Source: a virus. Taken from it: DNA of 64,000 nucleotides. The notes below the pieces were generated by a model, which was not told the origin of the DNA, did not search any database, and was given only the letters and a program-made list of their open reading frames with translations. The position numbers were made by a program, and so were the translations under genes. The DNA lies in IMG/VR virus record IMGVR_UViG_3300027985_000891, positions 60,899-124,898 of that record; one strand, 5' to 3'. Below are positions 21,225 through 31,534 of the stretch, one piece after another. Position 1 is the first letter of the stretch. Each line of letters starts with the position of its first letter.

Positions 21225-24200
21225 ATTGTGTGGGTGTGGCGGGTGGGATTATTCAATCAAACTAACATGACTAGAGAACAACTGGAACGATATTGGATGC
21301 TATATCAGCTTATAGGTAGTATAACTTCCTATCGTGGTGGTTATCTAAACTTGAGCACATGGCAAGCAGCTCGTGAATTACGTGACTTATGCGGTCATGC
21401 TATCTATTACTACACCCAGATGAAATGAACAGAACATACAAATACTACATACTCTTTAGGTCTTGCCGCAAGATCTTATGGGGAACACATTTCATTAACG
21501 TGGATCATGAGGTATGCTGGCAAACAGTTTATTCCATAACGGATATATTGGTCCGTGAAGATGCTAGACAGAATATTATTTGGCTCTAAGGCTATGTATA
21601 AACACTAACTAAATGAACGATAAACCAAATAAAGTTTTGTTTGAACTGTATTTTGATATATTCCTGACTATGCATGAAGACACATTTCCAATAGGAGCTG
21701 GTATATACCTGTCACTATTTGGTATCATTGATCTGCTTGATAAACACAATAACTGATTAATAATGAGCGAGTTATACTTCAATCTCTATGTGATCATGTA
21801 TGAATACTTCTATCCTTTAGAGTTTAATATCTACATGATCATAATCGACATCCTGGATGGAAACCTATTATAGACTGTTTTCTGCGATACGTTACCACTA
21901 TCATTACCTTTATTGGATGTCCGATGCACAAATAGATGATGATACGTACTACTTACTTCATGATATCGTATTATTGTTAGATAATTATGTAAAACACTGA
22001 GTAAGAACGAGTTAAAGTGAAAAAGTATACCTAACCCCCTGATTTAGACCCTTTTGAACATACCCTCAAAACAAAAGTGCTATAATTATGGTCTTTTATG
22101 ACAATCACTACAAATCCATACTTTCTTATTATTATCTCTATTTTACTAGAACCTTTAGATTATGTTATTGGAAAGCTGATATATTTTATAATGAAGAAAG
22201 AGATCGTTTTTTATACTATGCTCTATATGATATGATTCAGTTTATTAATACTTATCAAGTCCCAGGGAGATGAAGGTTTATATCCTCTTATTTAACTGTG
22301 ATATGTTCGCACATTCATATTATTTCTACTATAATGGCCACCCGGCAGATTATGTGTATGTCTCTTTACATAACCTATACGACTTACTAAAAGATGACTA
22401 AACTATATCCTCTTATCTTTCGATTGATCTGGATCAATTCTTATGTCTATTATGTATATGTTGATACTGAGGGCGAAGAGGTTTCTGATGCAGCACATAA
22501 ACTATACACTTTACTAAAATGACTCACTATCTTATCTATATTCGAACATTTCATGATCTTCTTATTCATGTAGAAACAGAGCATACCTTACGGGAACTTT
22601 CTCATGCTCTTTATCGTATCTATCTTCCTATCTATGATAACTATGTACAAGCGTAAACCTTTCTATAAGCTCATCTTTCATATGTTGGACCTGTTTACTA
22701 ATAATCCTTATACTTATAATCCACCATATGAAGATGTCCGTAAAAGTGCTGTATTTTTGTTACATCATATCTACAATCATGAATGACTCTATCAACTATA
22801 CTTTACTCATCAATCTGACCCGCAAAGCTCTCAAATTGTATCTGGATGAGTACATGAAATTCGTTATTCCAGAGTCTCTACCAGCATTTATAGCCATGCA
22901 TCAACTGTATTATGTTTTACATTATGATCTACCCGATAACATACTCTAAGTTATTCAGACACTTCTATATGATTATTTATAACGATTCTCATAGTAGACT
23001 ATCAAGAGATGCAAATAGGACTTTATTTAGACTTGATATCTTACTACAAAGTACAAAGACTAACTTTCCTTTCACATGAACATTTATTATCTTATATGGA
23101 TCAGAAAATACTTCGCTGAGTATTGGCTTTTCTATCAGCTTCACTATGAGGTGTATAGCATTTTATATGAAATTATAACACTTCACGATGAATACTTTAC
23201 ATCACATGATCAGAAGTATTAAGGATTATCTGTTTCTTCTCTGGTTTGATACTAATGTGTATAATCCTGACTTCGACCAGCTCAGAACACTTCATTATCT
23301 TTGGGAAGAGTTCGCTTACCTTTCTAACCAATTTTATCGAATCAACTGTTATGTTTGATTTGATGCTAAGAGTTCTTACAACGTATTTGTATAACCAGTA
23401 TGAAGAACCATACTGTCTGCCAACAGTTCTATCTGTCTATCAACTATATCATGTTTTACACTATGAACTACCAGATGTACTTTAGAAAGTTAAGATTGTG
23501 TTGCGGACATTATCTGCCATTATTGAATGTACATGATCACTTGTTGCTTATCCAGATATATAATGATATCGATTATCTGATTGCTATACACATGAGACAA
23601 TATGGTAAATATAATGCGTGATGTTACAAGCTATTACAGCTATTACTTCATAGAGACCCCAGAGGGATGGATTCGTGATCTTCCCCAAGAATATTATGAT
23701 GTAGACAAAGTATGTAGAATGCTATATTTTATTCTTCATAATGAAGCATGTGCTTCTAAATTATCTTTCTATGATACTGAAGTTTAAGATCTGTTTCCGG
23801 ATCATTCGCATGATGATTATTTATAATCATAAGTTTTTATTTTCTATGATAATAACATCTAGATACATTAATACTATTGGTAGTCTATCTTTTGAAGTAT
23901 CACCAGCTTTTCATCAAACTTATATTGAAGTACATAATGCATCAGTAAAACTCATTGACTGCCTCACTACACATTTTGAACCATGAATGAGAAGATTTAC
24001 ATCCAGTACTATTCCTGGTTTCTTAATATGATACTTCTCAAGGATACAGTAACCGGAGGAGGTGCTGTATTCTTCAAAGTACTTTCACTTAGAGACGATT
24101 TATCTCAAACAATTCAAAGAACTTATGGGCCTACCAATTAACTATTTACCTTCTTACTATGTCTGGCATGATACAGCAACTGTCTTTTTCTATTACTATG

Positions 24201-25870
24201 AGAATCGGTTTGACTTACAAGGACCAGAACTTACTGCTGTAGTTAATGCCATTTATAGTATGGGTCTTAGCGTGAGAATTCGCAAGCGCCGTTATGGATA
24301 AATATACTACAAATCTTAAACACTTTAAGACAGTTATAGATATACTTTATAAGTATTACTACTTTTATCTAAATCCTCATTCACGTATTCATATTGCCAT
24401 ATTTAGAATATCACTTAACTCCTTTTTAAATGAAAACAATAACATTAGATCATCAAACACCTGATGATACCATGGACATCCTGGAAAAGCTTAAAGCTAA
24501 TGGGCATACGGATGTTATTATTAGCTATAATGGAATAGCTAAAGTTTATAACATCGACGTTTATCTGGACATCCTAAACAACTACTTTGATGGACTTGAA
24601 AACATACAAGAGCATGCTGAACATGATTGAGCAAATGATGTGGATAGCGACAAATAAGAGTGGATATCATGCTTGGAAAGCTTGCGATTCGCTACTTGTA
24701 ACTTTAAGAGAGCAGGTAAATATTTGATAACTTTTGTAATACTATCAACATGAAAAACCTGCTCTTTTATTACTATATAATGCGTAGTATGAGATTATGT
24801 CTTTATATTGAATATGAGGATGGGAAACGTCAAGATATAGTCAAAGATGTTTGGTATCAATCTATTTTATTATCCAACTTTATATACCATGACCAAATTT
24901 AGTCTTAAAGATCATACATATCTTCTTGGATGGGTCCGTGATCATTTAGCTCATAACATTATGAATGTGTATGAAGAAGAACATCCTTGGGTCTATGCAA
25001 TTTATTTAGTAGCTTGTATATCTAATCATGATCAATCTTACCCTTCTTAAGTTATTAGTTAGCTCCTTTCTCCTGGGATCTGTATGTGATCCGGATAACT
25101 TTGATTTCGTCTGTACTACACCAGTTGGACTTCAAATCTTTGATGATCATATAAACGGTTGTCATGGAGCTAGATACATTCAGGTAACAAATGTTACTTC
25201 AGATTCTATAACATTATATGTTAAAGATAGTGTTGTTATCAACTCGTTTGAAGGTAACATCACAATTGAACTCCCATGCCATTAGAGACATATCTATCTA
25301 TCTTCAGAATGTTCAAAACAAGGATTGAAACATCTGCTGATACATTTGGATGCTACTATTGTACTCAGTCAATCATTAACGCATACTGGTATCATATAGT
25401 AAGATATAAGTAATTTCCCCTTTTAAACACTCAGTCATTGGGAGGCCTTTGGGTCTCCCTTTTATAATTATGAACGCTATAATATACTATCAACTTTTCT
25501 GTGCTGCTTATAACTTATTTGTTTCACATTATTGGCCTATAAGCTATAATTGTTCATCTATAGCTAACGATATTCAAGAGCTATCATGGAAATGTAGATA
25601 TCTGAAGTATCATGATATAACCACTATAAAATAAAAAAACATGAAAAAGACTATCGTATTCTTATGCTTTTGCATGATCATACTGATCTGTGCATTTGTT
25701 ATACATTTCCTGGAACCTATAATAGGACCAGGTGCAGCGATCTTTATTACCTTACCTGCTGCTGCAGTTATACTTATGAATGTAGCTATTAAAGTATATG
25801 ATCGCTATGGATAGAAATTTTATGTGACAGAGTAAAAACACTGATTATTAACTTATTTAAAATATGAAAC

Positions 25871-26488
25871 ATGAATATTTTAGCATCACGTCCCATGGAC
25901 GTTATCAAAAGAAGAATCGTATTAACAGGTACAAAGGACATCATGTTCGACCGGTACGCCGGCGACAACAACACAAAGTTGGAACCAGCTCAGAAGTTAT
26001 ACCTGAAGCCAGAACCGGACGGAGAGTTGCCCAGTATTATACTACCGGCGGCCAATTTTATGAGCTTCTTATCCGCCCATAATACCAACTCTGCTCCAAA
26101 GAGGCTGAGGGATGCAAGAAAATATAAGGCAATAGCCAATGCTTGTTTATCATTTGTAGATATTGAGGAAGAGCATATTCCTTTTATGAGGAATGGTAAA
26201 CCTATTAAGTTTGATAGGTTTAATGCTGAAGAGATCGATACTGTCAGTGGATGTTATATCCATCGTAGTGTAGCAAGATTGGAAAAGGGTATACCTAATC
26301 CAAAAGTACGACCAGTGCTTCCTAAACCATGGAGTGTTGAGTTTACGATGGTTATTCATCCAAATAAGGAAATCAAAGAAACAGAGATCTACAACCTTAT
26401 TTCTGAAGGAGGTATTGCAATAGGTTTAGGTACCTATCGTGGTGTCTTTGGAAAGTTTGTTGTAGAAGCTTGGGATGAAATAAAGTAG
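25871..26488 (+). CDS. Solo RAMP (Cas7-like) protein
   Basis: N-terminal strand RIVLTGTKDIMF, IILPAANFMSFL (RAMP IP-helix motif), late strand WSVEFTM and C-terminal Gly-rich loop GGIAIGLGTYRGVFGKF. Confidence 0.75.
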   Translation: MNILASRPMDVIKRRIVLTGTKDIMFDRYAGDNNTKLEPAQKLYLKPEPDGELPSIILPAANFMSFLSAHNTNSAPKRLRDARKYKAIANACLSFVDIEEEHIPFMRNGKPIKFDRFNAEEIDTVSGCYIHRSVARLEKGIPNPKVRPVLPKPWSVEFTMVIHPNKEIKETEIYNLISEGGIAIGLGTYRGVFGKFVVEAWDEIK

Positions 26489-27279
26489 GCAAGGTATGGA
26501 GGGGCTCTGATCGGTGTGGAGAGGAGGGGCGATGCAAGACGCTGCACTGCATAAGATAACTCTACCTGGGAAACTGGGTAGAGTTTTTTATTATAAACAT
26601 ATGTGCTTGGTTGAGCTTGGATCGGAAAGGAGTGGCAATGTAAGGATAGGCTCGGAAATGATAGGCAAGGATAGCTTTTTACCCAAAACTAAAAATATAA
26701 TCAATGCTAGGCTCGGCACGTCTCTGACTGGCCCTTCCTGGCCCTGCCTGGAGGGGCGGTGCTATGCTTTGATAGGCAAGGAATGGTTTTTACCCTGAAA
26801 CTGAAGATATAACGCGTAAGTGTGAGGAAGTGCTAGGCCCTGACAGGCGAGTCTCGGAGTGGATGGGATTGGTAAGGATTTGCTAGGCAAGATTTTTATA
26901 CCTAAAACTAAAAATATACTAAGAATAACTTGGATAGTCACGGACTGGACTGGAGGGGATTTGCTAGGACAGGCGGTGCTAGGATGGGATTGGCGAGGAT
27001 GGGCACTGAAAGGTAGTGAAAGGAGAGGCTATACAAGGCAAGGCTTTTACCCAAAACTAAAGATATAATACTCAGAAACATTGGCCGGGATGGGCATGGA
27101 TGGTCAAGGATGGGACTGGAGTGGAGGTGATAGGCACTGCAAGGATTGGTTTACCCAAAACTAAAGATATATTTTAGGCGGATCCAGGCTGGGTACTGCC
27201 CGGACCGGCTGCGATAGGAGTTGCCCGGATGGGAGGGGAGAGGCTCTGCAAGGAAAGGTCTTGCTTTGCTAGGCAAGGT
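26486..27279 (+). repeat. Array of seven pentamer-periodic tracts (NN+GGH/TGH) with a conserved linker; putative guide-like ncRNA array
   Basis: Tracts at 26486-26550, 26602-26671, 26703-26787, 26819-26893, 26930-27044, 27081-27150 and 27175-27279; linker consensus TTTTACCCAAAACTAAARATATA follows tracts 2-6. Confidence 0.9.
26558..26590 (+). terminator. Terminator-like hairpin after the first pentamer tract
   Basis: ACTCTACCTGG-GAAA-CTGGGTAGAGT followed by a T-run. Confidence 0.7.
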
Positions 27280-27458
27280 TATATTATCGTTGTAACTAAA
27301 TAACTTGTTATATGAAATCTGTTACTATTTATCCGGATCCCATTGCCCAATTACTTGATAAGATTGATAAGGAGAATGAACAAAAGCATAAGAAAGAAAT
27401 GATTATGCCGGCATCTCACAAGATTACCTTGTTTTTCTTATCTCTTTATTAGTTGTTC

Positions 27459-27483
27459 GAGGGGGTCGAAAGACTCCCTTTTT
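27459..27483 (+). terminator. Intrinsic terminator
   Basis: GGGGGTC-GAAA-GACTCCC followed by TTTTT. Confidence 0.7.
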
Positions 27484-28511
27484 ATCTGAAACTTTTAAAA
27501 TAAAACATAATGGCAAAGAAACTGACATCTCAAACGGTGAACACTTTCATGAAAATTACTCATTTGTTTATCCATGATACTGAAATAGCAAAGAAGAAGT
27601 ATTGGGAGAACAATAAGAAGAGCTCTCCTCAGAGCGATTTCTATGATACAGCGCTAAGTAGAGCTAATGAGCTATTGGAGAAGTTACAGAAGCTCTATGA
27701 CTCTATCGTAAAGGATGAAAAGAAAGAAGTATAGAGTCTATGCGTTCCCTAAGAAATACGCTAGAGTTTATATGCTTCTTTTTAGATCCATAATGTATGT
27801 AAACAGATTAAGAGCATCTAACTCATTTAGTAAATATGCTCTTTATGTAGATCTTAGAGTACTCATTTCGTTACTTAGACTGTATATTCGACATAAACAT
27901 GAGTATTTCGAATAAGTTTCAATGGTACTTCTCTTTATTGGTATGGATGTCTCAACATATAACTAATAAGTTAAATCCTTTAGATCAGTATAATGAACAG
28001 ATGTATATTGCAGATGAGCTTATCAGATTAAGTAGTATAGCTTATCATATGTATCTTATTCATTTCAAAGAGAACACAAACCCCAGAGGGTGAGGATGAT
28101 ATGATTACCTATAAATGAATATGGAACAGAGAACTATGTATCAACGCAGATTCTATCATTACTGCTATGACTTCTTTCATTGGCGTCTATTAATATGGGA
28201 TAGAGATATGCACGATTTCAGTAATGAGACTTTGAATATGATCTTGGAACTGGAAACTAAAGTGAGAGTTCTTTATCGGATGTTAGATGATTGTCCTCGC
28301 GCGCGTACTTAACTATACTATAATTATAGTTTATACTATAAAAAAGATATATGTTATATCTATTAGTATGTGTTCCTCTCCCTGGGATCTTGTCTATAGT
28401 TAGTGTATCTACTGTAAGTAAGTACAGTTAGTATACTTACTATAAGGGTCTAACAATCGAGGTACATAAAATGTTTTAAAAAAGTTTACTTATTGCTTAA
28501 AATATACAACG

Positions 28512-28826
28512 ATGACAAAAATTCGTCCTGATCGTTACGATCTTGATAAAGTAAAAGCTGATATGGCTGATAATATTGTTAATTTGATATCAGTAGTAGT
28601 TCTTACCCTTATAGGTATCATAATACTATACTTTGCTATTTATGGTGCAGTAGTAAGAACTCAAATAGAATACTGGGAACAAGCACATAAAGCTAACTTT
28701 TTTGCTACCATGCATAAGTATAATAAGTTTCAATCCTGTCTTGAGTATCAGGATACCTGTTTATGTGCTTACAATCTTCCGGAATATGAACGAAAATGTT
28801 ACTGCGATGAACAAGAAACTCATTGA
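28512..28826 (+). CDS. Single-pass membrane protein with Cys-rich C-terminus
   Basis: Hydrophobic stretch IVNLISVVVLTLIGIIILYFAIYG. Confidence 0.55.
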   Translation: MTKIRPDRYDLDKVKADMADNIVNLISVVVLTLIGIIILYFAIYGAVVRTQIEYWEQAHKANFFATMHKYNKFQSCLEYQDTCLCAYNLPEYERKCYCDEQETH

Positions 28827-30511: not shown

Positions 30512-31534
30512 ATGAAACACTTTTTGTTCATTTCAGTATTCTTATGTGTAATAGCTGATATCTATTCACAACAATGTTTTGTAACAGACTTCGAATATCA
30601 GTTCTATGTACCACCTGATCATAACCATCAGACTGATAGAGCATTACATACTCACTGTCTAACGATTTTTGCCGTAGTAGACTACTTTACTTATCTTGAT
30701 TTTAATGGCAATGAGCCGGCAATAGTACAATGGGTAGAAGATAACTGGAGTAATGTAAAAGAGGTCTTTGCTATTGAAAATGTTAGTGTGGATGTATCAG
30801 CTATTCACATTTATACAGAACCGGATTGGATCACATTGGGTACCTATAATAATATTCAAGAAGTACTTTATGATTTTGGTGGTTTCATTAAAGACGATGT
30901 CAATGGACGCTTCAAATGTATGATGACCACCTATGAATGGGGAGGTGGTATTGGTTGGGTAGGAGGATATAATACTCCTCGTAAACCGGTATACAATCAG
31001 AGTGGCTTATTAGGATACTATGGCGCATACAATGTGTGTGGTAACTTATCTAAAACAGTTACTGATTATCCTGCTTATTCATGGAATACAAATGTACTTG
31101 CTCATGAACTGGGACATAACCTTGGACTTGGACATACCCACGATGGTATATGGGGTCCTAATAATGATATGAGAGTTGACGATTGTGCAGGTAATCCTAT
31201 GACACCGGTTATTATGCCTATTGAATATAGTACTGCTATGAGTTATTGTCATCTTACATCTCATGGTATTGATCACACCAAAGGATTTGGTTTCTATCCT
31301 GGTGAACTTATGCGAGCTAACATCTTTGCTACTCCTATGTTGGAGATAGTCGATGGTACCTTAATTCTTCAAGGCCTTCTTCAAGGTTATGAGTATCAGG
31401 CTTCAGAGATTATTATTCCTAATGGTGGAAACAGCGCAAACTATTATCTTACTTTGAGAGCAGATGAAGTTACTATCGAAAATAACTTTATAGCTTATCC
31501 AACTTTTCAAATTTATCCCTCAGTGTGTAATTAG
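30512..31534 (+). CDS. Secreted metzincin (reprolysin/M12B-like) metallopeptidase
   Basis: Signal peptide, HELGHNLGLGH zinc motif and Met-turn AMSYCH. Confidence 0.85.
   Translation: MKHFLFISVFLCVIADIYSQQCFVTDFEYQFYVPPDHNHQTDRALHTHCLTIFAVVDYFTYLDFNGNEPAIVQWVEDNWSNVKEVFAIENVSVDVSAIHIYTEPDWITLGTYNNIQEVLYDFGGFIKDDVNGRFKCMMTTYEWGGGIGWVGGYNTPRKPVYNQSGLLGYYGAYNVCGNLSKTVTDYPAYSWNTNVLAHELGHNLGLGHTHDGIWGPNNDMRVDDCAGNPMTPVIMPIEYSTAMSYCHLTSHGIDHTKGFGFYPGELMRANIFATPMLEIVDGTLILQGLLQGYEYQASEIIIPNGGNSANYYLTLRADEVTIENNFIAYPTFQIYPSVCN

What the first reader, a model, noticed from the sequence alone, without database searches (positions are those of the whole stretch)
25871..27279. Solo RAMP/Cas7-like gene plus pentamer-periodic RNA array: candidate non-CRISPR RNA-guided system
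Seen in sequence: starting at the gene's own stop codon are seven G-rich tracts of 13, 14, 17, 15, 23, 14 and 21 pentamers. Each pentamer is a variable dinucleotide plus a conserved triplet, mostly GGA/GGC/GGT or TGC/TGA (tract 6: tt-GGC cg-GGA tg-GGC at-GGA tg-GTC aa-GGA tg-GGA ct-GGA gt-GGA gg-TGA ta-GGC ac-TGC aa-GGA tt-GGT). The register does not slip within a tract, yet the NN strings differ entirely between tracts. Established: RAMP/Cas7 proteins polymerise on RNA with a fixed nucleotide step, and this 205-aa protein has the RAMP Gly-rich loop. No cas1/2/3/5/6/8/10 or repeat-spacer array is recognisable in the window. Inference: one subunit binds each conserved triplet and the NN dinucleotides together spell a discontinuous guide aimed at competing phages or host genes. 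From memory this resembles phage RAMP + GGY/NN repeat ('VIPR') systems; I cannot verify that here, and this locus is GGA-rich.
Basis: partly seen in the sequence, partly recalled or inferred. Interest (0 to 1): 0.96.

Follow-up and report, generated by a model that had tools for sequence, protein, structure and literature searches.

The report
VIPR guide-RNA system in crAss-like phage
This is a real example of the VIPR system described in 2026, a small Cas7-like protein gene followed by seven five-base-repeat guide-RNA units, carried by a crAss-like phage and built on an unusually loose repeat, but the kind of system is already known and its targets here remain unknown.

Summary
Right after gene 25871-26488 (+) lie seven same-strand pentamer tracts of 13, 14, 17, 14-15, 23, 14 and 21 units. 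None occurs elsewhere in the window or in the 124,898-bp virus record.

- A 95-sequence family profile hits PDB chain 36pp_D, 'SUSP1 Vipr protein', at E 1.4e-9.
- The AlphaFold model (pLDDT 96.7) has a Csm3/Cas7 fold, Z 12.4.
- 122 of 125 homologous loci carry same-strand arrays beside the gene.

The local differences:
- The repeat is K-G-H/NN, not GGY/NN. Only 39 of 116 units are GGY, and A at the 'Y' place is commoner than in any homologous locus examined.
- No accessory gene is conserved.
- The host phage is crAss-like.
- Non-canonical motifs such as TGH/NN are already reported (10.64898/2026.10.21.760802).

No target was found under the 1-nt-skip rule, and no RNA data exist. This scan already holds 497 VIPR notes from at least 372 genomes.

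Verdict: new member of a known kind, modest interest.

The parts
25871..26488 (+). vipr gene, 205 aa: a stand-alone RAMP (Cas7/Csm3-like) protein with G-loop GLGTYRGVFGKF at residues 185-196
   Evidence: ORF. Family profile hits PDB 36pp_D 'SUSP1 Vipr protein' at E 1.4e-9. AF2 pLDDT 96.7. Csm3 fold, Z 12.4, rmsd 3.9, 161 aligned; Foldseek E 6e-6. 2275 homologs.
26486..26550 (+). Pentamer tract 1 (13 units). It starts on the gene's TAG stop codon, so it is probably co-transcribed with vipr.
26558..26591 (+). Intrinsic-terminator-like hairpin (12 pairs) plus T run, which closes the vipr + tract 1 unit
   Evidence: The fold of 26486-26592 has z -3.40.
26602..26671 (+). Pentamer tract 2 (14 units), ending in the conserved TAGGC AAGGA
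26678..26700 (+). Conserved AT-rich tail/spacer, copy 1 (TTTACCCAAAACTAAAAATATAA)
26703..26787 (+). Pentamer tract 3 (17 units)
26793..26811 (+). Tail/spacer, copy 2 (diverged)
26819..26888 (+). Pentamer tract 4 (14 units, 15 with the following AAGAT)
26900..26918 (+). Tail/spacer, copy 3
26930..27044 (+). Pentamer tract 5 (23 units)
27046..27068 (+). Tail/spacer, copy 4
27081..27150 (+). Pentamer tract 6 (14 units)
27150..27172 (+). Tail/spacer, copy 5
27175..27279 (+). Pentamer tract 7 (21 units), ending in TAGGC AAGGT and followed by a different AT-rich end (27280-27310)

Best explanation
The locus is a VIPR (Viral Interference Programmable Repeat) system of a crAss-like phage. It consists of one vipr gene and seven vrRNA units on the same strand.

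By homology with the characterised SUSP1 and P. fulva systems, the expected mechanism is as follows. Vipr protomers bind one per pentamer and form a helical filament. The filament buries the conserved trinucleotide (here K-G-H) and presents the NN pairs. The NN pairs base-pair with double-stranded DNA while skipping every third target base. Binding silences transcription of a competing mobile element or another target.

Shown here: the protein family, the fold, the array anatomy, and the gene-array linkage across the family.

Inferred: that the tracts are transcribed from the + strand, that the filament forms, that the 1-nt-skip rule applies, and what kind of target is hit.

Local peculiarities:
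- Tract 1 overlaps the stop codon and ends at a terminator hairpin.
- Tracts 2-6 are each followed by a locus-specific AT-rich tail.
- The repeat is relaxed to K-G-H.
- No accessory (vap) gene is present.
For: Protein:
- A profile of 95 family members matches PDB 36pp_D 'SUSP1 Vipr protein' at E 1.4e-9 (profile 93-191, chain 99-190). The next hits are at E 0.23.
- In that printed alignment, counted by hand, SUSP1 R138 (thumb, contacts G2), W178 and R179 align with R147, Y189 and R190 here. R190 is invariant and R147 nearly so in the family. The contact roles come from 10.64898/2026.04.26.720927.
- The model has pLDDT 96.7. The top 22 VIA rows are all CRISPR RAMPs, the best being Csm3 9g9a_D at Z 12.4. 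All Foldseek rows listed are type III CRISPR complex chains.

RNA:
- There are seven fixed-register tracts with hypervariable NN.
- G at place 4 (= G2) is the best-kept base, 108 of 116. This fits the conserved R147 and Y189.
- The tracts are not more structured than shuffles, z +0.82 to -1.46, as expected for a guide-presenting strand.
- A conserved 3' handle and tail follow the tracts.

Family:
- 122 of 125 homologous loci (viral, genome and metagenome contigs; some are duplicates of one contig) have same-strand arrays beside the gene.
- They share the 3' handle AAGGC AAGGN followed by a T run.

Other:
- No Cas1, Cas2 or Pfam RAMPs match in the record.
- No self-target: the best hit is 19 of 26 NN bases (73%), within the shuffled controls. 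The paper's own self-target control gave the same result (section 27).
- A second assembly of the phage differs at three array places: two at place 5 (A>T) and one in an NN. None is at the K-G places.
Against: - No RNA run holds the locus, so transcription, strand and processing are untested.
- No target was found for any guide.
- The skip rule could not be checked in this clade.
- Only 39 of 116 units are canonical GGY, and strict YNNGG never runs beyond 2 units. In SUSP1 the Y pocket is reported to exclude purines and G1 is read by D177, which is T188 here (10.64898/2026.04.26.720927). Binding of these relaxed units is therefore assumed, not shown.
- The HMM alignment to SUSP1 Vipr covers only the C-terminal half.
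- The reverse complement of the tail contains TAGTTTTG in 3 of 5 copies (my reading of the sequences). I recall this as fitting the Bacteroidota -7 promoter box, so antisense transcription is not excluded.
Confidence: 0.88

Rival explanations
1. This is a decaying VIPR locus. The protein is intact, but the arrays have drifted in an AT-rich genome (GGC to GGA, TGC, TGA). Many units no longer bind Vipr, so the system is weak or inactive.
For: Only 39 of 116 units are GGY. Strict YNNGG runs reach 2 units at most. The window has the highest A share at place 5 (0.41) of all 126 loci, and its DNA is 35% G+C. SUSP1 Vipr is reported to exclude purines at Y3, and perturbing GGY abolished silencing (the two April 2026 preprints, Results).
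Against: - The register never slips over 116 units. Place 4 is G in 108, and place 5 is never G. Free decay would not avoid G or indels.
- Other low-G+C loci (L023-L025, 33% G+C) keep GGC, so composition alone does not force the change.
- Relatives with 50-60% G+C also carry 25-33% A at place 5 (L029, L037, L043, L087), so A seems tolerated in this clade.
- The three differences in a second assembly spare the K-G places.
Confidence: 0.07
2. This is a VIPR-like RNP with a different read-out: it targets RNA, or uses a skip rule other than 1 nt, because the repeat and the G1 and Y3 contacts differ from SUSP1.
For: D177 of SUSP1 is T188 here, and C173 and V175 are I184 and L186 (hand-counted). No 1-nt-skip target was found. 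In the held loci, 1-nt skip gave no more near-matches than skips of 0, 2 or 3: 7 against 17, 10 and 10 guides at 18 of 20 or better.
Against: The paper reports using the same 1-nt-skip workflow for types III and V, with hits for 44 of 63 and 23 of 39 guides (section 27). The thumb arginine and the G-loop aromatic-Arg pair are conserved. My searches were small or demanded exact matches, so the blanks carry little weight.
Confidence: 0.04
3. This is not a guide array at all, but a DNA-level or antisense feature. Candidates are G-quadruplex-prone DNA, protein-binding iterons, or C-rich RNAs transcribed from the - strand from promoter-like boxes in the tails.
For: The reverse complement of 3 of 5 tails reads TAGTTTTG (from the sequences), which I recall as fitting the Bacteroidota -7 box TAnnTTTG. 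GG every 5 nt could in principle stack.
Against: The gene next door is a Vipr homolog. In 122 of 125 homologous loci the G-rich strand is the gene's strand. The tail motif occurs only in this locus (5 copies), not genome-wide. No replication or iteron context was seen.
Confidence: 0.01

Closest known systems
VIPR systems, with the type II system of Escherichia phage SUSP1 and the P. fulva prophage as the experimental reference (bioRxiv 10.64898/2026.04.26.720920; 10.64898/2026.04.26.720927; 10.64898/2026.10.15.759431, abstract only)
   Same: A stand-alone RAMP protein homologous to SUSP1 Vipr. Phage-borne. No cas genes or CRISPR array. An array of about 70-115-nt pentamer tracts with hypervariable NN and a conserved 3' end. 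Several vrRNAs lie downstream of the gene.
   Different: - The repeat is K-G-H, not GGY.
- There is no vap gene.
- The tail is short, AT-rich and without a predicted stable fold or pseudoknot.
- Tracts reach 21-23 units, against 9-16 reported.
- The first tract overlaps the stop codon.
- The host phage is crAss-like. The words 'crAss' and 'Bacteroid' do not occur in the discovery paper's main text, and its supplementary tables were not readable.
Non-canonical VIPR arrays reported from genomic-language-model clustering (bioRxiv 10.64898/2026.10.21.760802; passages read)
   Same: 5-nt periodic arrays next to Vipr-like folds whose fixed trinucleotide departs from GGY, including motifs degenerate at one place such as TGH/NN and WGT/NN.
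   Different: Here two places are degenerate within the same tracts (G/T at place 1, A/C/T at place 3). The protein belongs to a clade whose other members mostly use plain GGC. I could not check whether this clade is among those 21 clusters, because figures and supplements are not held.
Cas7/Csm3 backbone subunits of type III CRISPR-Cas effectors
   Same: The fold: RRM core with G-loop, Z 12.4 to Csm3 9g9a_D and 11.2 to 6ae2_B. One subunit binds per fixed RNA step.
   Different: No Pfam RAMPs match. No crRNA repeat-spacer array and no Cas10, Cas5, Cas6, Cas1 or Cas2. A 5-nt rather than 6-nt step. The guide is read discontinuously.
TIGR-Tas tandem interspaced guide RNA systems (named in 10.64898/2026.10.21.760802)
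   Same: A non-CRISPR, phage-associated RNA-guided system encoded as a short-period tandem array.
   Different: That preprint gives an 18-nt period, and I recall a different effector family. There is no similarity to this protein.

Membership tests
VIPR | Vipr protein homologous to characterised Vipr proteins | tested here: met
   A family profile (95 sequences) matches PDB 36pp_D 'SUSP1 Vipr protein' at E 1.4e-9 and 41.3 bits. Only profile positions 93-191 are aligned.
VIPR | Minimal RAMP fold: single RRM core, glycine-rich loop, thumb | tested here: met
   AF2 pLDDT 96.7. Z 12.4 to Csm3, and the top 22 VIA rows are all CRISPR RAMPs. G-loop GLGTYRGVFGKF. The thumb arginine R147 aligns with SUSP1 R138 (hand-counted). 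The thumb as a structural element was not inspected separately.
VIPR | Tandem pentamers in which a conserved trinucleotide alternates with hypervariable NN ('GGY/NN or a related consensus') | tested here: met
   Seven tracts and 116 units. Information is 0.99, 1.58 and 0.63 bits at places 3-5, against 0.10 and 0.07 at the NN places. Runs of H-NN-K-G reach 18 units.
VIPR | Canonical motif as used for the paper's first-pass detection: at least 4 consecutive YNNGG units | tested here: not met
   The longest strict YNNGG run is 2 units, and 39 of 116 units are GGY. The paper itself admits NNNGG, YNNNG and NNNNG arrays (Methods section 20), and NNNGG runs of 4-5 units occur 9 times here. This row therefore marks a variant, not an exclusion.
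VIPR | Invariable 3' extension (tail) after each repeat tract | tested here: met
   The conserved handle TAGGC AAGGN and the tail TTTACCCAAAACTAAARATATA follow tracts 2-6. There are 5 copies, found only in this locus. No conserved fold is predicted.
VIPR | Gene-array linkage across the protein family | tested here: met
   122 of 125 homologous loci have same-strand arrays within 1.5 kb upstream or 2.5 kb downstream. The misses are L006, L082 and L124.
VIPR | Accessory vap gene (typical, with six vap families for seven types) | tested here: not met
   No neighbour of the window's gene has a homolog in the other loci. The commonest other neighbour cluster is in 18 of 126 loci. This is probably a vap-less type. 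The type could not be assigned because the figures and supplements are not readable.
VIPR | No cas genes and no CRISPR array | tested here: met
   No Cas1, Cas2 or Pfam RAMPs match in the 124,898-bp record. TRF finds no CRISPR-like array in the window. There are no PADLOC hits for the gene or for 6 of 7 neighbours.
VIPR | vrRNAs expressed and co-purifying with Vipr | not testable with these tools
   No RNA run is listed for the locus.
VIPR | Targets matched by NN under the 1-nt-skip rule (at least 80% NN match) | tested here: inconclusive
   Own genome: best 68-73% except 63% for tract 5, within the shuffled controls. Five exact sub-patterns found 0 in IMG/VR. One 9-unit hit does not extend, 24 of 46. 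0 of 401 and 0 of 201 genomes at up to 3 mismatches.
CRISPR-Cas type III (Csm3/Cmr4 Cas7) | RAMP subunit encoded with Cas10 and other cas genes and a repeat-spacer array | tested here: not met
   Only the fold is shared. There is no Pfam RAMPs match and no Cas1, Cas2 or array.

The most novel reading that the evidence does not exclude
This Vipr truly works on a doubly relaxed scaffold. Only the second G is fixed, A is accepted where SUSP1 Vipr is reported to exclude purines, and T is accepted at the first G. If so, the clade's real rule would be K-G-H/NN. VIPR filaments could then form on far more degenerate RNAs than the GGY definition, and YNNGG-based searches, allow. A vap-less seven-guide VIPR would also serve a crAss-like phage of Bacteroidota in sediment or vent communities against targets not yet sequenced.
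Probability: 0.35. Interest if true: 0.45.

Novelty: new member of a known kind. Interest (0 to 1): 0.3.

Why it matters
VIPR was described only in 2026, and its rules rest on two closely related type II systems. This locus adds three things.

First, it is a well-delimited natural example in a crAss-like phage.

Second, it lies in a clade of at least 258 representative protein clusters with no accessory gene.

Third, it has the most relaxed repeat among the 126 loci compared here.

If the relaxed K-G-H units are bound, the GGY definition is too narrow for both discovery pipelines and guide design. That is a modest refinement of a known system, not a new kind of system.

Tried and rejected
1. 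Single-sequence AlphaFold gave pLDDT 36 and was unusable. It was replaced by the alignment-based model.

2. Pfam found nothing for the protein at E up to 10. PHROGs gave only phrog_4652, of unknown function. PADLOC found nothing.

3. Rfam found no family in 25400-27600 at E up to 1, and none at gathering score in 20 of the 125 homologous loci. I therefore saw no hammerhead-interspersed architecture.

4. Target hunting under the 1-nt-skip rule:
- Own genome: no hit above the shuffled controls. The skip-3 'hits' are the arrays themselves.
- IMG/VR exact sub-patterns of tracts 6, 4, 1, 7 and 3 (11-12 units each): 0 hits.
- Tract 5, 9 units: 1 hit (L127), which matches only 6 of 28 bases outside the seed, so it is chance.
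- Tract 2 was never searched in a public collection.
- Tract 6 in 401 genomes, and tract 1 in 201 genomes, of the phylum of G001 at up to 3 mismatches: 0 hits. The reversed control pattern gave 2 and 0.
- These scans needed exact or near-exact matches and covered samples only, so they say little.

5. Skip-rule test inside the clade. 2448 ten-unit guide windows were compared against 813 kb of held loci. Guides reaching 18 of 20 or better numbered 17, 7, 10 and 10 for skips of 0, 1, 2 and 3. That shows no enrichment for 1 nt and is uninformative, because the held DNA is mostly the flanks of vipr genes. One guide of L091 gave 0 of 4 and 0 of 121 genomes of its genus.

6. Expression: no RNA holder is listed. 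Laid DNA contigs show only that a near-identical phage occurs in other runs.

7. Residue-versus-motif association. 95 distinct proteins were tested of the 110 loci that had a near-full-length match and at least 15 units; the other loci were dropped. No single position stands out, and the associations probably follow subclades.

8. The homo-trimer prediction gave no verdict: score 0.40 against a mark of 0.42. It is not used as evidence.

9. Type assignment (I-VII), and whether this clade is among the 667 published systems or the 21 non-canonical clusters, could not be checked. Figures are not held and supplements are closed.

10. The idea that the tail is a genome-wide promoter is rejected, because the motif occurs only in this locus.
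Full report
**What is there.** Gene 25871-26488 (+) encodes 205 aa. From its TAG stop codon onward the + strand turns G-rich: 32.4% G against 18.9% for the window. It also becomes 5-nt periodic. Same-base autocorrelation is 0.41, 0.41, 0.40 and 0.39 at lags 5, 10, 15 and 20, against 0.20-0.31 at other lags and 0.27-0.29 at lag 5 in both flanks.

A fixed-register detector (G at place 4, G or T at place 3, at most one bad unit in a row) returns seven tracts:
- 26486-26550 (13 units)
- 26602-26671 (14)
- 26703-26787 (17)
- 26819-26888 (14, or 15 with the next AAGAT)
- 26930-27044 (23)
- 27081-27150 (14)
- 27175-27279 (21)

It returns nothing on the - strand of the 64 kb. No other part of the 124,898-bp virus record shows the periodicity; the record is CheckV 76% complete. 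The longest unbroken run is 18 units, against a maximum of 7 in 2000 shuffles.

**Anatomy of the unit.** Over 116 pentamers the two NN places carry 0.10 and 0.07 bits. Place 3 is G 83 / T 30, place 4 is G 108, and place 5 is A 48 / C 56 / T 12 / G 0. The consensus is therefore NN-K-G-H. Only 39 units are canonical GGY, and strict YNNGG never runs beyond two units.

The last two units of most tracts are conserved (TA-GGC AA-GGN). Tracts 2-6 are followed by a locus-specific AT-rich tail, TTTACCCAAAACTAAARATATA, present in 5 copies in the record, all in this locus. Tract 1 differs. It begins on the stop codon and ends at a 12-pair hairpin plus T run at 26558-26591 (z -3.40). It is therefore probably the 3' part of the vipr transcript. 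That last point is inference.

The tracts themselves fold no better than shuffles, z +0.82 to -1.46. Rfam finds nothing.

**The protein.** Pfam gives no hit. PHROGs gives only a family of unknown function. The family is large: 2275 proteins at E up to 1e-3 among 2608 candidates and 258 representative 50%-identity clusters.

A profile of 95 members hits one meaningful PDB chain, 36pp_D 'SUSP1 Vipr protein', at E 1.4e-9 over profile positions 93-191. The next hit is at E 0.23.

With that alignment AlphaFold gives pLDDT 96.7. The model aligns to Csm3 9g9a_D at Z 12.4 (rmsd 3.9, 161 residues). The first 22 VIA rows are all CRISPR RAMPs. Foldseek agrees at E 6e-6.

I counted along the printed alignment by hand. 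The SUSP1 residues reported to hold the second G (thumb R138, G-loop W178) and the cation-pi arginine R179 correspond to R147, Y189 and R190. R190 is invariant and R147 nearly invariant in the family (roles from 10.64898/2026.04.26.720927, Results part 1). D177, which reads the first G in SUSP1, is T188 here. The best-kept base of the repeat (place 4) thus faces the conserved contacts, and the looser places face changed ones.

**The family context.** I compared 125 homologous loci: 83 viral contigs, 21 genome contigs and 21 metagenome contigs, 35-71% identical. Several are duplicates or near-copies. Of these, 122 have same-strand arrays next to the gene, upstream, downstream or both. The misses are L006, L082 and L124.

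Nearly all use GGC. They end in AAGGC AAGGN followed by a T run, like the window's handle.

The window has the highest share of A at place 5, 0.41. The next are 0.31-0.33 in L029-L032, L043, L037 and L087. Three low-G+C loci (L023-L025) keep GGC, so base composition alone does not explain the drift. No single residue tracks the A share.

No neighbour gene is conserved. The window's flanking ORFs have no homologs in the other loci. The commonest other cluster occurs in 18 of 126 loci.

The hosts named in genome records span Proteobacteria, Planctomycetota, Desulfobacterota, Patescibacteria and an Ignavibacteriaceae MAG.

**What is known.** VIPR systems were reported in 2026.
- The discovery preprint (10.64898/2026.04.26.720920; I read Results, Methods sections 18, 20 and 27, and figure legends) describes Vipr RAMP proteins, vrRNAs of 9-16 YNNGG repeats with a 3' tail, the 1-nt-skip rule, programmable repression, seven types and six vap families. 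It notes alternative NNNGG, YNNNG and NNNNG arrays.
- The structural preprint (10.64898/2026.04.26.720927; Results part 1 read) shows one protomer per repeat.
- A third preprint (10.64898/2026.10.15.759431; abstract only) shows phage-satellite competition.
- A fourth (10.64898/2026.10.21.760802; passages read) recovers 99 VIPR-like 5-nt clusters, 21 with non-canonical motifs such as TGH/NN.

This scan itself holds 497 VIPR notes from at least 372 genomes. The kind is therefore known, and so are non-canonical motifs.

**What could not be shown.**

Expression: no RNA run is listed. DNA contigs only show a near-identical phage in other runs. One assembly differs at 26944 (A>T, place 5), 27221 (T>C, an NN place) and 27229 (A>T, place 5).

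Targets: none was found in the phage's own genome, matching the authors' own self-target control. None came from exact sub-patterns of five tracts in IMG/VR. One chance hit appeared for tract 5. Tract 6 gave 0 of 401 and tract 1 gave 0 of 201 sampled genomes of the phylum of G001, the Ignavibacteriaceae MAG. The skip rule could not be checked within the clade. These blanks are weak, because the scans were exact or sampled.

**The carrier.** PHROGs identifies a major head protein, portal, large terminase and DNA polymerase. The terminase is closest to Cellulophaga phage phi14:2 (36% identity over 97%), followed by crAss-like phages and Flavobacterium phages. The phage is therefore crAss-like, with a probable Bacteroidota host. 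The host is inferred. The discovery paper's main text mentions neither crAss nor Bacteroidota, and its tables were not readable.

**Verdict.** The local interest lies in four features: the relaxed K-G-H repeat, the lack of an accessory gene, the stop-codon-overlapping first unit, and the crAss-like carrier. It is a new member of a known kind. The main open question is what the seven guides target.

Noticed in passing
window 21857-25413 (+): A run of some 25 tightly packed or overlapping small ORFs (42-85 aa) on one strand. Many are rich in Tyr, His and Leu, with similar C-terminal ...LY..L... stretches. They look like a tandem family of small paralogous phage genes just upstream of the VIPR locus.
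   Followed up: no
window 30512-31534 (+): A 340-aa phage protein with an N-terminal signal-like segment and a reprolysin/M12-type zinc metalloprotease domain (PF13688, E 3.8e-10).
   Followed up: partly
window 28512-28826 (+): A 104-aa protein with a weak PADLOC match to a two-transmembrane 'Effector' model (PDLC00691, E 4.9e-4). It lies 1.2 kb downstream of the array. No homolog was seen next to other vipr genes.
   Followed up: partly
window 26486-26494 and tract ends 26662, 26773, 27270: The nine bases TAGGCAAGG that close tracts 2, 3 and 7 also open tract 1, exactly at the vipr stop codon. The only other copy in the 125-kb record is at window 11730. It is unexplained whether this is a handle, a processing site or chance.
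   Followed up: no
L091 2858-2947, L095 2850-2944, L097 2883-2952: In several homologous prophage loci an array lies directly upstream of vipr, and its T-rich tail runs into the ribosome-binding region and ATG of the gene. This suggests coupling of vrRNA 3' ends with vipr expression in the clade.
   Followed up: no
L092 (Planctomycetota MAG contig), L041, L010: Very large arrays next to homologous vipr genes: 12 tracts with 160 units in L092, 8 tracts with 211 units in L041, and 5 tracts with 155 units in L010.
   Followed up: no
held loci: Two ten-unit guide windows from homologous arrays match held DNA at 20 of 20 NN bases with no skipped base, and two more with three skipped bases. I did not look at where. 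G+C-rich low-complexity DNA or unmasked array remnants are the likely cause.
   Followed up: no
window 26944, 27221, 27229: A second public assembly of the same phage differs from the window at three array places: two A>T at the third trinucleotide place and one T>C in an NN pair.
   Followed up: partly
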